Assembly (NCBI GenBank): GCA_964525295.1
Contig: CAZGEO010000001.1
Location: 73,671-137,670, forward strand
Reading direction: 5' to 3'
Source of the DNA: an uncultured Candidatus Saccharibacteria bacterium
Lineage (GTDB): Bacteria > Patescibacteriota > Dojkabacteria > GCA-002793355
Length of the DNA: 64,000 bases
Shown: positions 2,464 through 2,866 of the stretch, one piece after another
Layout of the letters: every line of letters starts with the position of its first letter
How positions within the stretch are numbered: position 1 is the stretch's first letter
Position numbers and translations under genes: made by a program
The notes under the pieces: generated by a model
What the model saw: the letters and a program-made list of their open reading frames with translations, nothing else
Database searches by the model: none
Told to the model about the DNA's origin: nothing

Positions 2464-2535
2464 GCCGGCGTAACTCAGTGGTAGAGTGGCAGTTTTGTAA
2501 ACTGTATGTCGAGGGTTCGAATCCCTCCTCCGGCT
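2464..2535 (+). tRNA. tRNA-Thr (TGT)
   Basis: Acceptor GCCGGCG/CTCCGGC with one C-U mismatch at 6-67, D-arm ACTC-AGTGGTA-GAGT, anticodon stem GCAGT/ACTGT with loop TTTGTAA, T-arm GAGGG-TTCGAAT-CCCTC. Starts 1 nt after the M50 protease stop codon. Confidence 0.85.
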
Positions 2536-2866
2536 TTTTTCTTTCTTCTGTCAGCTACCTAAACAATTTGTTCCCTACAAAAAACAACTCCCTCTTTTGT
2601 GTTTACGCGCACTCGTTGTTTTCTATTGGCATTTCGGGCAAAGAATAAATGCCTAACAGGGGAAAGAAAAAGAAGCGAAGTGGGATGAGAAACTCAAGCG
2701 AAACAACAACAATTTGTTGTTAAGTGCAGAGCGGGGCTGAGCCTAACAACCTTAAAAACTTATATATGCATTTTTCGTGCAGAATTTATAATGCCGAAAA
2801 ATGGTGGGCAGCCGAATCCCTCCTCCGGCTTTTTTCTTTCTTCTGTCGGCTACCTAAACAATTTGT
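2536..2866 (+). repeat. tRNA-3'-flanking element copy 1 (after tRNA-Thr-TGT), ending in a duplicate of the tRNA 3' end
   Basis: Direct repeats 2518-2571 and 2813-2866 (54 nt, 1 mismatch). They cover tRNA positions 56-72 plus 37 nt of pyrimidine-rich flank. Internal hairpin AACAACAA..TTGTTGTT at 2702-2721, core AGAGCGGGGCTGAGCCTAACAACC at 2728-2751, junction AAATGGTGGGCAGCCGAATCCC. No ORF. Confidence 0.7.

What the first reader, a model, noticed from the sequence alone, without database searches (positions are those of the whole stretch)
2518..2866. Family of ~300-nt non-coding elements placed 3' of tRNA genes, each ending in a copy of that tRNA's 3' end (copy 1, tRNA-Thr-TGT)
The architecture is the same in the four complete copies (2536-2866, 4161-4474, 20471-20783 and, on the minus strand, 56478-56784); the divergent remnant 56180-56477 and the degenerate fragment 61283-61420 retain only the hairpin/core.
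- A complete tRNA comes first.
- It is followed by a pyrimidine-rich tract.
- Next comes a paralogous ~250-nt body with no ORF.
- Then a conserved junction AAATTGGTGGG-N-AGCCGA.
- Finally there is an exact duplicate of tRNA positions 56-72, which run from the T-loop C56 to the acceptor end.
- The identical part of the tRNA differs between loci, but the junction sequence preceding it is conserved.

In copy 1 the duplicated block is 54 nt with one mismatch. It extends 37 nt beyond the tRNA.

This pattern fits an attL/attR pair left by site-specific insertion into tRNA 3' ends, but the elements carry no integrase. They would therefore have to be non-autonomous or remnants. Alternatively they are tRNA-co-transcribed RNAs whose 3' end imitates the tRNA T-arm/acceptor strand.

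I do not recognise this as any described element class.
Basis: seen in the sequence. Interest (0 to 1): 0.9.

Follow-up and report, generated by a model that had tools for sequence, protein, structure and literature searches.

The report
Structured mini-elements inserted behind tRNAs
A family of 130-330-base, protein-less, tightly folded elements sits directly behind tRNA (and tmRNA) genes whose T-arm reads GGGTTCGAnTCCC, each ending in a second copy of that tRNA's last ~18 bases. It behaves like a small mobile element of a kind not described so far, so it may point to an unknown way of inserting DNA at tRNA genes without damaging them.

Summary
In this Candidatus Dojkabacteria (CPR) window, five of seven tRNAs are followed by a paralogous non-coding element. 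A sixth copy lies just past the window end.

- **Anatomy.** Each intact copy ends in a conserved junction plus an exact copy of its own tRNA from C56 to the 3' end.
- **Fold.** The body has a covariation-supported structure that uses the copied T-loop/T-stem bases as one strand of a helix.
- **Target rule.** All six tRNAs of this genome with a ..TCCC T-stem carry an element. The three with TCCT or TCGG do not.
- **Turnover.** Orthologous tRNAs in related genomes are empty, carry other size classes (~115, ~200 nt) or carry decayed copies. Copies cluster by genome, not by tRNA, and tandem arrays occur.
- **Spread.** Relatives sit behind a tmRNA gene and, in Treponema, behind tRNA-Ser.
- **What is missing.** There is no Rfam match, no ORF, no terminal inverted repeats, no recombinase in the window, and nothing in viral contigs.

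Best reading (about 0.55): a non-autonomous, T-arm-specific insertion element, co-transcribed with the tRNA, whose insertion duplicates C56 to the 3' end. The enzyme is unknown. Classical att/integrase integration fits poorly, and a host function is not excluded.

The parts
2463..2536 (+). tRNA-Thr(TGT), T-arm GAGGGTTCGAATCCCTC; host gene of copy 1
2380..2409 (+). promoter-like site (11/12, extended -10) upstream of tRNA-Thr(TGT). It is the only promoter-like site upstream of copy 1.
2537..2812 (+). element copy 1 (long subfamily), from the first base after the tRNA to the junction ..GGTGGGCAGC
   Evidence: (159 bits)
2536..2554 (+). pyrimidine tract of copy 1; pairs with the purine tract at 2653-2671 (19 nt, 84% complementary)
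2653..2671 (+). purine tract (P2) of copy 1, partner of the pyrimidine tract
2682..2693 (+). 'anti-T' segment GGGATGAGAAAC. Its first bases pair with GAATCCC of the terminal tRNA-fragment copy (helix Ha).
2702..2721 (+). hairpin Hb (AACAACAA/TTGTTGTT, loop CAAT). The stem covaries in every copy; loop consensus is YNAC.
2735..2743 (+). conserved core GGCTGAGCC, 5' strand of helix Hc
2769..2803 (+). helix Hd (CATTTTTCG.. / ..CCGAAAAATG) with a loop of variable length
2806..2813 (+). junction GGGCAGCC, 3' strand of helix Hc, immediately 5' of the tRNA-fragment copy
2813..2866 (+). right-hand repeat of copy 1. It is a copy of tRNA C56 to the 3' end plus 35 nt of the element's own 5' end, 54 nt with 1 mismatch to 2518-2571. 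The part beyond the tRNA is probably a relic of an earlier tandem copy.
4087..4160 (+). tRNA-Thr(GGT), T-arm ACGGGTTCGACTCCCGT
4161..4443 (+). element copy 2 (long): anti-T 4274-4285, Hb 4294-4311, core 4325-4333, junction 4437-4444
   Evidence: (164 bits)
4444..4460 (+). copy of tRNA-Thr(GGT) C56-C72 (17-nt exact run), followed by a diverged copy of the element's first ~15 nt
20397..20470 (+). tRNA-Gly(GCC), T-arm GCGGGTTCGAATCCCGT
20471..20765 (+). element copy 3 (long): anti-T 20626-20637, Hb 20646-20663, core 20677-20685, junction 20759-20766
   Evidence: (170 bits)
20766..20784 (+). copy of tRNA-Gly C56 to the 3' end (19-nt exact run)
20786..20830 (+). hairpin plus T-run after the right copy (ATGGGTTG..CAACCCATTTTT), probably the original terminator of the tRNA-Gly gene
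   Evidence: read directly from the sequence; the loop is too long for the scan
56784..56869 (-). tRNA-Leu(CAG), T-arm GAGGGTTCGAGTCCCTC
56522..56783 (-). element copy 4 (long). It has compensatory variants of core (GAAC) and junction (GTTC); anti-T at 56647-56658.
   Evidence: (162 bits)
56494..56521 (-). copy of tRNA-Leu(CAG) from G53 to the 3' end plus a few trailer bases (25-nt exact run from C56)
56180..56493 (-). second, tRNA-distal element of the tandem pair. It belongs to the 'medium' subfamily, and its own right-hand tRNA copy has decayed.
   Evidence: (E = 0.027 for 56197-56346)
61211..61282 (+). tRNA-Cys(GCA), T-arm GCGGGTTCGAATCCCGC
61283..61420 (+). internally deleted remnant: 5' hairpin, hairpin Hb (AATGTAACGACCTACATT) and junction GGTGGGTGAATCCCAC
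804..878 (+). tRNA-Arg(GCG), T-arm GCAGGTTCGACTCCTGC (TCCT, not TCCC): no element. Negative control for target specificity.
35369..35445 (+). tRNA-Val(CAC), T-arm ACAGGTTCGAGTCCTGT (TCCT): no element. Negative control.

Best explanation
These are copies of a non-autonomous, protein-less insertion element that specifically colonises RNA genes whose T-arm reads GGGTTCGAnTCCC (tRNAs and tmRNA).

**Shown.**
- The element lies between the intact 3' end of the tRNA and a second copy of the tRNA from C56 to the 3' end, so the tRNA stays whole.
- It has no promoter of its own and lies downstream of the tRNA promoter.
- Its sense strand has a conserved multi-helix fold:
  - helix Ha, in which an internal 'anti-T' segment (GGGAnTCG) pairs with CGAnTCCC of the copied fragment;
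  - helix Hc, in which the conserved core pairs with the junction directly next to Ha;
  - two hairpins (Hb and Hd);
  - a long helix between the tRNA trailer and an internal purine tract.
- Copies turn over. They show presence/absence at orthologous tRNAs, tandem arrays with the intact copy next to the tRNA, truncations, and decay of the acceptor part of the right-hand copy.

**Inferred.**
- Insertion is carried out in trans by an enzyme encoded elsewhere.
- It either makes staggered breaks at T55/C56 and just past the tRNA end (a target-site duplication of 17-21 bp), or primes synthesis on the element from a nick in the T-loop.
- In both cases the right-hand tRNA fragment comes from the target itself. 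That explains why every copy carries its own tRNA's sequence.
- The folded RNA, or the single-stranded DNA of the same strand, is the form the enzyme recognises. The anti-T/T-arm pairing accounts for the target rule.
For: **Family and architecture.**
- Shown: **Target rule.**
- In one genome, 6 of 6 tRNAs with a TCCC T-stem are occupied (Thr x2, Gly, Leu x2, Cys).
- 0 of 3 with TCCT or TCGG are occupied (Arg, Val, Trp).
- Fisher exact p = 1/84, my arithmetic.
- Occupied sites in other genomes are all TCCC, including a tmRNA.

**Mobility.**

| Site | State in each genome |
|---|---|
| tRNA-Gly | empty in L014; ~113-nt element in L016 and L018; ~300-nt element here |
| tRNA-Leu-CAG | empty in L019; long in L021; medium in L022; long plus medium here |

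- Window copies are 53-67% identical to each other but only 50% identical to the L021 copy at the orthologous tRNA. The two L022 copies are 63% alike.
- Public assemblies break inside the elements.
- The family is present in Dojkabacteria and in Treponema/Spirochaetaceae.

**Structure.**
- 40 pairs were counted, with 89.9% of cells paired against 76.2 +/- 1.5 in shuffles (0 of 500 shuffles reach the observed value).
- 20 pairs change on both sides.
- Slid controls give 34-47% paired.
- Across 12 copies, helix Hc uses five different complementary 4-mers (GGCT/AGCC, GAAC/GTTC, GGTC/GACC, GGCC/GGCC, GGTT/AACC).
- The anti-T base n complements tRNA position 59 in 11 of 12 copies.
- The trailer/purine helix is 19-31 nt and 81-95% complementary, with a different sequence in each copy.

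**Co-transcription.**
- Promoter-like sites (11/12 for both tRNA-Thr, 9/12 for tRNA-Gly) lie just upstream of the Thr and Gly tRNAs.
- None lies inside the Thr or Gly elements, and there is no terminator between tRNA and element.
- One 10/12 site lies inside the Leu copy.

**Right-copy decay.**
- The acceptor part of the right copy is lost in older copies, while CGAnTCCC is kept.
- Identity runs are 4-10 nt in L021, L022, L028 and W_LeuTAA, against 17-35 nt in the intact ones.
Against: - No enzyme and no autonomous (ORF-carrying) relative was found in the window, in any fetched locus or in viral contigs.
- No two copies are more than 67% identical, so there is no sign of a recent burst.
- No filled/empty pair with homologous flanks was obtained, so the insertion boundaries are inferred, not observed.
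- The Treponema copy is 100% identical over ~116 nt between two species whose spacers are roughly 50% diverged. That could mean host-level purifying selection rather than selfish spread.
- Besides base n, some internal segments complement tRNA-specific bases:
  - P1, an A-run plus the complement of the last 3-8 tRNA bases;
  - an acceptor 5'-strand mimic in the short forms.
  - A plain target duplication does not supply these. They need later compensatory change or a templated step.
- G-U pairs are few (7 against 3 A-C), so RNA and single-stranded DNA cannot be told apart.
Confidence: 0.55

Rival explanations
1. Host-beneficial, tRNA-linked non-coding RNA. The element would be a processed RNA, or a cis-acting part of the tRNA precursor. 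Its antisense segments (anti-T, P1, P2) and its decoy copy of the tRNA 3' end would control folding, 3' processing or stability of the co-transcribed tRNA, or give the downstream RNA a tRNA-like 3' end. Copies would spread rarely and be kept by selection.
For: - The Treponema copy is 100% conserved between two species while the spacers around it are diverged and even SRP RNA has substitutions.
- The right-hand copies are exact in four window elements although the bodies differ by 33-47%.
- Internal segments complement tRNA-specific bases.
- The element is co-transcribed from the tRNA promoter.
- The structure is strongly supported by covariation.
Against: - Orthologous tRNAs do without it (L014 Gly, L019 Leu, L021 Cys).
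- Truncated and internally deleted copies are tolerated (Cys remnant, W_LeuTAA right copy, L021 Leu-TAA fragment).
- Tandem double occupancy occurs.
- Three or more size classes replace each other at the same tRNA.
- Copies cluster by genome, not by tRNA.
Confidence: 0.22
2. Classical att-flanked integrative elements without their own integrase (CIME-like, or minimal attP circles). They would be moved by a tyrosine integrase encoded elsewhere that crosses over in the T-loop. The direct repeat would be the attL/attR identity block.
For: - A complete tRNA is followed by the element and then a repeat from the T-loop to the 3' end. This is the textbook picture for islands in tRNA and tmRNA genes (my knowledge of Williams 2002, not re-read here).
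- A tmRNA gene is also a target.
- Tandem arrays occur.
- The T-arm palindrome would make a natural core site.
Against: - An attP must already hold the tRNA-specific bases 3' of the crossover. Yet one family is found behind Thr x2, Gly x2, Leu x2, Cys, Ser and tmRNA, each with the local sequence, and copies group by genome.
- The body shows RNA-like compensatory helices rather than arm-type protein sites.
- No integrase was found in the window.
- No kilobase-scale island bounded by the same repeats was seen in any locus.
Confidence: 0.12
3. Guide RNA of an RNA-guided nuclease or transposase (TnpB/IscB omega-RNA-like, or bridge-RNA-like). The conserved body would be the scaffold and the tRNA fragment after the junction the guide. 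The junction ..GCC|GA in place of ..GTT|CGA would prevent self-targeting.
For: - A conserved scaffold is followed by a locus-specific 16-20 nt segment at its 3' end, as in TnpB omega-RNAs (my knowledge).
- The sequence 5' of the match differs between the tRNA (GGTT) and the junction.
Against: - The intact tRNA gene a few hundred bases upstream carries the full 'TAM plus target', so an active nuclease would cut its own chromosome.
- IS200/IS605 insertion makes no duplication.
- No tnpB, iscB or IS110-type gene was found in the window or the loci examined.
- The presumed guide is base-paired inside the fold (helix Ha).
Confidence: 0.05
4. Intron-like insertion in the T-loop. The distal fragment would be the true 3' exon, and the proximal 3' end would be part of the intervening sequence.
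For: The break point lies inside the T-loop, and the tRNA 5' part could in principle pair with either 3' copy.
Against: - The proximal tRNA is complete and scores normally.
- No group I or group II signature was found.
- The distal copy decays in many loci.
Confidence: 0.03

Closest known systems
Genomic islands and prophages integrated in tRNA/tmRNA genes by tyrosine integrases, and their non-autonomous derivatives (CIMEs)
   Same: - An intact tRNA is followed by the element and then a direct repeat running from the T-loop to the 3' end.
- tmRNA is also used as a target.
- Tandem occupancy occurs.
- No recombinase lies inside the element, as in CIMEs.
   Different: - The elements are only 115-330 nt long.
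- One family sits behind many different tRNAs, each with the local tRNA sequence.
- The body is a covarying folded strand that pairs with the repeat.
- No integrase was found.
Casposons (Cas1-solo transposons) and CRISPR spacer acquisition
   Same: - Integration next to the T-psi-C-loop segment of a tRNA gene gives an unusually long target duplication. In Aciduliprofundum boonei it is 15 bp and overlaps the tRNA-Pro 3' end (PMC5137440).
- New units are added on the 'leader' side, and here the intact copy is the tRNA-proximal one in both tandem pairs.
   Different: - Casposons are kilobase-sized and have terminal inverted repeats and cas1/polB genes. Here there are no inverted termini (read from the sequence; one search lists only internal helices) and no genes.
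- The duplication here starts inside the T-loop and ends at the tRNA end.
MITEs and other miniature non-autonomous transposons
   Same: They are small, multi-copy, non-coding, dependent on a trans-acting enzyme, and show insertion polymorphism and decay.
   Different: - There are no terminal inverted repeats.
- Target choice is extreme: one site class, the T-arm.
- The duplication is 17-21 bp.
- The fold is strand-specific.
IS200/IS605-derived PATEs and TnpB omega-RNAs
   Same: - The structure is strand-specific with hairpins near the ends.
- A conserved RNA scaffold abuts flanking DNA.
- Non-autonomous copies exist.
   Different: - IS200/IS605 elements make no duplication.
- No TnpA or TnpB was found.
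- The 'guide' would target the host's own tRNA gene.
Retro-elements with tRNA-like or tRNA-binding 3' ends (Neurospora Mauriceville retroplasmid, SINEs, retroviral primer-binding sites); resemblance recalled from memory only
   Same: - The element lies directly 3' of a tRNA sequence.
- Its own 3' end is built from tRNA T-arm/acceptor sequence held in a helix.
   Different: - No CCA is found at either junction.
- No reverse transcriptase was found.
- This resemblance is only a lead.

Membership tests
Any Rfam 15 family (tmRNA, RNase P, group I/II introns, ribozymes, HEARO etc.) | Covariance-model score at or near the family's gathering threshold | tested here: not met
   Only tRNAs reach threshold in the window. 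E-value scans of the long, compact and medium forms give only noise far below gathering scores.
Tyrosine-integrase integrative element / CIME | Direct repeat (att identity block) comprising the 3' part of the tRNA at both ends | tested here: met
   Exact runs of 17-35 nt from C56 in the intact copies.
Tyrosine-integrase integrative element / CIME | One attP identity segment per element family (the same target tRNA for related elements) | tested here: not met
   Related copies sit behind Thr-TGT, Thr-GGT, Gly-GCC, Gly-CCC, Leu-CAG, Leu-TAA, Cys, Ser-GGA and tmRNA, each with the local sequence. Copies cluster by genome.
Tyrosine-integrase integrative element / CIME | A cognate integrase in the element or in the same genome | tested here: inconclusive
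   None in the elements or in the window ORFs scanned. The rest of the ~0.66-Mb genome could not be read.
MITE | Terminal inverted repeats | tested here: not met
   Inverted repeats found are internal helices (trailer with purine tract, hairpins), not the two termini.
MITE | Short, fixed-length target-site duplication | tested here: inconclusive
   The repeat always starts at C56 (G53 once) and ends 0-3 nt past the tRNA, giving 17-21 nt. Longer repeats look like relics of tandem copies. No empty allele with the same flanks was available.
Casposon | cas1 (casposase) and polB genes, terminal inverted repeats | tested here: not met
   There is no ORF in the elements, no such Pfam hit in the window ORFs scanned and no inverted termini.
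IS200/IS605 PATE / TnpB omega-RNA | Insertion 3' of a short target motif without duplication; TnpA/TnpB in the genome | tested here: not met
   A duplication is present in every intact copy. No TnpA or TnpB was seen in the window.
tmRNA / tRNA-like RNA | Acceptor stem plus T-arm formed by the 5' and 3' ends | tested here: inconclusive
   ARAGORN and Rfam call no tmRNA here. The short forms in relatives do pair an internal acceptor-5'-strand mimic with the copied 3' strand. The long forms have only 3-8 nt of such complementarity.
Structured functional RNA (generic) | Helices kept by compensatory changes beyond shuffle and slide controls | tested here: met
   (0 of 500 shuffles reach the observed value; slid controls 34-47% against 89.9% paired).
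Transcribed with the tRNA | Read-through transcript from the tRNA promoter | not testable with these tools
   Only indirect evidence: promoter-like sites upstream of the tRNAs, none inside the Thr or Gly elements, and no terminator in between.

The most novel reading that the evidence does not exclude
The element may be an RNA-programmed mobile element.

- Its own transcript, released from the tRNA precursor by normal tRNA 3' processing, would select T-arms by base pairing (anti-T with TTCGAnTCCC).
- It would then be copied into DNA by a trans-acting enzyme from a nick in the T-loop.
- The conserved CGAnTCCC at its 3' end would act as the primer-binding site, so the new right-hand tRNA fragment is supplied by the target.

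That would make it a bacterial SINE-like, or RNA-guided, tRNA-gene-specific insertion system with no described counterpart.
Probability: 0.2. Interest if true: 0.9.

Novelty: new variant of a known kind. Interest (0 to 1): 0.75.

Why it matters
- **A safe landing site with no gene of its own.** tRNA genes are the classic landing sites of mobile DNA, but the known occupants are kilobase-sized and bring a site-specific integrase matched to one tRNA. This 0.1-0.3-kb element uses the same site in a way that works for any tRNA or tmRNA with a GGG/CCC T-stem. It always rebuilds the tRNA, and it folds the duplicated tRNA bases into its own structure.
- **A possible new enzyme.** If the mechanism is a long staggered-cut or target-primed insertion guided by the anti-T pairing, it would be a new enzyme-substrate system of potential use for programmable insertion.
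- **Scale in reduced genomes.** It would also explain a notable share of the scarce intergenic DNA in CPR genomes. Elements account for about 2 kb of this 64-kb window and sit behind five of its seven tRNAs.
- **If it is a host RNA instead.** It would then be a new class of cis-acting tRNA-precursor module.
- **Practical consequences.** The elements break metagenome assemblies, and their partial tRNA copies can be mistaken for att sites of lost prophages.

Tried and rejected
1. **Rfam** at gathering and E-value thresholds on the long, medium and compact forms found nothing.
2. **Genome-contig scan** with the degenerate core pattern gave 12 loci, all chance hits. This includes a Patescibacteria contig where the match lies in coding sequence.
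3. **Strict long-family pattern** in viral and metagenome contigs gave 0 hits. Three further viral scans also gave 0, so no phage link is seen.
4. **Four of the eight hits** of the relaxed metagenome pattern (L023, L024, L026, L030) are high-GC, tRNA-less chance matches.
5. **Acceptor-stem mimic in the long family** is only weakly supported.
   - 3-8 nt complement the tRNA end.
   - The L022 copies lack it.
   - It would form a pseudoknot with the trailer/purine helix.
   - I kept it as an unexplained detail, not as a tRNA-like fold.
6. **Long-range pairing** between the conserved 5' motif GGTTAYGC and the core tail GCNTAACAACC is no better than shuffles.
7. **Hammerhead-like three-way junction.** The strand order and GAAA fit, but the CUGANGA strand is absent, and Rfam is negative.
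8. **TnpB-type homing** is rejected because the intact tRNA gene would be a permanent self-target.
9. **Terminal inverted repeats** were not found.
10. **RNAalifold on automatic alignments** of all subfamilies gave a poor consensus. I therefore used a manual structure on the six long copies, plus direct motif extraction across 12 copies.
11. **Strand and molecule test** by G-U against A-C counts is not decisive (7 against 3).
12. **ORFs overlapping the elements** (20429-20698 and 56480-56767) are not conserved between copies.
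Full report
**What is there**

The window holds seven tRNA genes.

- Directly after Thr-TGT, Thr-GGT, Gly-GCC and Leu-CAG (minus strand) lies a 265-295-nt non-coding stretch.
- Each stretch ends in a conserved junction (..AAATTGGTGGGnAGC, or ..AAATTGTTGGGTGTT in the Leu copy).
- The junction is followed by a second copy of the same tRNA from C56 to its 3' end (G53 in Leu). The last 15 nt of each tRNA recur 270-299 nt downstream with 0, 1, 0 and 0 mismatches.
- In copy 1 the repeat is 54 nt with one mismatch: 2518-2571 against 2813-2866.
- Core and junction motifs each occur three times, against 0.00 and 0.14 expected.
- The four bodies are 53-67% identical.
- A covariance model built on them finds no further hidden copy in the window except 56197-56346(-).
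- The stretch after tRNA-Cys is an internally deleted remnant.
- tRNA-Arg and tRNA-Val have nothing behind them.

**Organism and surroundings**

- Protein homologues are named Candidatus Dojkabacteria. The genome is in NCBI and Logan as a 659-kb contig.
- The neighbouring genes are ordinary housekeeping genes. No integrase, transposase, reverse transcriptase or Cas1 domain was found among the window ORFs scanned.
- Strong promoter-like sites (11/12) lie immediately upstream of both tRNA-Thr genes, and a 9/12 site lies upstream of tRNA-Gly.
- No promoter-like site lies inside those elements, and no terminator-like site lies between tRNA and element.
- Behind the right-hand copy of the Gly locus comes a hairpin with a T-run that looks like the original tRNA terminator.
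- Co-transcription with the tRNA is thus the parsimonious expectation, but it is not shown.

**Fold**

RNAalifold on the four copies, together with my own inspection, gives five helices in the 3' two-thirds.

| Helix | Pairing |
|---|---|
| Ha | internal GGGAnTC(G) with (C)GAnTCCC, the first bases of the copied tRNA fragment |
| Hb0/Hb | a hairpin with a YNAC loop |
| Hc | conserved core GGCTGnGCC with junction GGTGGGnAGCC, directly abutting Ha on the 3' strand |
| Hd | a hairpin with a loop of variable length |

Counts on six long copies:

- 89.9% of cells form standard pairs, against 76.2 +/- 1.5 in shuffles (0 of 500 reach the observed value).
- 20 of 40 pairs change on both sides.
- Partners slid by 1-3 columns give only 34-47% paired.

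Counts across 12 copies from five genomes:

- The four bases before G57 are AGCC, GTTC, GACC, GGCC or AACC.
- Their exact complement (GGCT, GAAC, GGTC, GGCC, GGTT) occurs at the core in every case.
- Base n of the anti-T segment complements tRNA position 59 in 11 of 12 copies.

Other features:

- In the 5' third, the pyrimidine tract that follows the tRNA pairs with an internal purine tract. The helix is 19-31 nt and 81-95% complementary, with a different sequence in each copy.
- A second purine segment (P1) is an A-run plus the complement of the last 3-8 tRNA bases. It can pair with the tRNA end plus trailer.
- Pairs are mostly Watson-Crick (207), with 7 G-U and 3 A-C. The strand is probably the tRNA-sense strand, but RNA and single-stranded DNA cannot be separated.
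- No Rfam family matches any form.

**Target rule**

- Reading 10 kb upstream and 7 kb downstream of the window in the same genome adds two tRNAs (L031, L032).
  - tRNA-Trp has T-stem CTCCG/CGGAG and no element.
  - tRNA-Leu-TAA has T-arm GAGGGTTCGACTCCCTC and a long element, followed by the 3' half of a medium one.
- In this genome, all six tRNAs with GGGTTCGAnTCCC are occupied. The three with TCCT or TCGG are not (Fisher p = 1/84, my arithmetic).
- Every occupied gene found elsewhere also has TCCC, including a tmRNA gene (L028).

**Comparative evidence for turnover**

| Site | Genome | State |
|---|---|---|
| tRNA-Gly-GCC | L014 | bare |
| tRNA-Gly-GCC | L016 | ~113-nt element with exact 3' copy |
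| tRNA-Gly-GCC | L018 | ~113-nt element with decayed 3' copy |
| tRNA-Leu-CAG | L019 | bare |
| tRNA-Leu-CAG | L021 | long element with half-decayed right copy |
| tRNA-Leu-CAG | L022 | ~200-nt medium element |
| tRNA-Leu-CAG | this window | long plus medium in tandem |
| tRNA-Cys | relatives | bare with a terminator, or a ~165-nt or ~115-nt element |

- Window copies are closer to each other (53-67%) than to the L021 copy at the orthologous tRNA (50%). The two L022 copies are 63% alike. Copies therefore group by genome, not by site.
- In both tandem pairs the intact long copy is next to the tRNA and the medium copy is distal.
- The acceptor part of the right-hand copy is lost in several loci while CGAnTCCC, which is part of helix Ha, is kept.
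- Public assemblies break inside the elements.

**Distribution**

- A relaxed pattern found real members in JGI metagenomes:
  - a Dojkabacteria tRNA-Gly-CCC locus (L025 = L027);
  - a tmRNA locus (L028);
  - a tRNA-Ser-GGA locus (L029).
- L029 belongs to Treponema/Spirochaetaceae.
- The Treponema element is compact (~128 nt) and lies between tRNA-Ser and the SRP RNA gene.
- In a second Treponema genome (L034, whose 603-aa protein is 89% identical to L029's), the ~116-nt body is 100% identical. The inter-tRNA spacers are about half diverged or unalignable, and the SRP RNA has substitutions.
- L034 also has an extra small anti-T-bearing insert behind tRNA-Ser-CGA that L029 lacks.
- Five scans of viral contigs found nothing.

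**Interpretation**

Mobile, non-autonomous DNA is indicated by several observations together:

- many diverged copies at different tRNAs of one genome;
- a sharp target rule;
- presence/absence and replacement at orthologous sites;
- tandem arrays, truncation and decay;
- occurrence in two phyla.

Classical attP x attB integration explains the repeat. It does not explain how one family carries the correct, tRNA-specific 3' segment at nine different RNA genes.

A mechanism in which the right-hand fragment comes from the target explains this at once. Two such mechanisms are possible:

- staggered breaks at T55/C56 and just beyond the tRNA end, followed by fill-in;
- priming from a nick in the T-loop on the element's CGAnTCCC.

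The nearest documented precedent for a long duplication anchored on a T-psi-C-loop segment is the Aciduliprofundum casposon. It makes a 15-bp duplication that overlaps tRNA-Pro by 5 bp (PMC5137440). These elements, however, have neither inverted termini nor genes.

I therefore commit to 'non-autonomous T-arm-specific insertion element, transcribed with the tRNA as a folded RNA, inserted by a duplicative mechanism' at about 0.55.

The main rival, at about 0.22, is a host-useful cis-acting RNA module. It draws on the perfect conservation in Treponema and on the internal segments complementary to tRNA-specific bases.

**Limits**

- No enzyme, no autonomous relative and no filled/empty allele pair was obtained.
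- Transcription is inferred.
- The short forms in relatives pair an internal copy of the tRNA's 5' acceptor strand with the copied 3' strand. They may or may not be homologous to the long forms.
- The caps on genome and metagenome scans prevented a whole-genome census.

Noticed in passing
window 35369-35445: tRNA-Val(CAC) encodes its 3' CCA (..GCCCACCA). The other six tRNAs of the window do not.
   Followed up: no
window 20786-20830 and L021 6283-6325: The hairpin plus T-run after the right-hand copy at tRNA-Gly (ATGGGTTGGTGTTCA..AGCAACCCATTTTT) resembles the terminator directly behind the unoccupied tRNA-Cys of a related genome (ATGGTTGGTATTCA..AGCAACCATTTTT). It may be a shared tRNA-terminator module.
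   Followed up: no
window 56838-56869: The 3' end of the SBP_bac_5 gene (56838-58565, minus strand) overlaps the 5' part of tRNA-Leu(CAG) by about 32 nt. The same overlap is called in the Logan contig (L032).
   Followed up: no
L016 6766-6893, L018 2892-3015, L019 11396-11570, L022 11428-11549: Short (~113-165 nt) elements behind tRNA-Gly and tRNA-Cys of related Dojkabacteria have the same architecture. An internal segment mimics the tRNA's 5' acceptor strand and pairs with the copied 3' strand. In L022, for example, GAGGTGATA pairs with TGTCACCTC.
   Followed up: partly
L028 137-660: A tmRNA gene (Rfam, 70.7 bits) is followed by a perfect ~41-nt palindromic hairpin, then a partial anti-T motif, then a medium-type element. 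tmRNA is therefore a target of the family.
   Followed up: partly
L029 4443-4741 and L034 about 1560-1855: In Treponema/Spirochaetaceae MAGs the compact element lies between tRNA-Ser(GGA) and the SRP RNA gene. The stretch after the right-hand tRNA copy repeats the element's first ~27 nt, including the anti-T motif. The repeated unit (about 43-47 nt) thus begins with CGAATCCCC and ends with its inverted complement GGGGATTCGA.
   Followed up: partly
L031 (end at 12181) and L032 (start): Logan assemblies of the source sample end inside the Thr-TGT element and inside the Leu-CAG element. The repeats break short-read assemblies.
   Followed up: no
L032 7997-8055 versus L025 6197-6253: The remnant of a medium element in this genome is 90% identical over 59 nt to the element behind tRNA-Gly(CCC) of another Dojkabacteria MAG. 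No other non-tRNA DNA similarity was found between the two organisms' fetched loci.
   Followed up: partly
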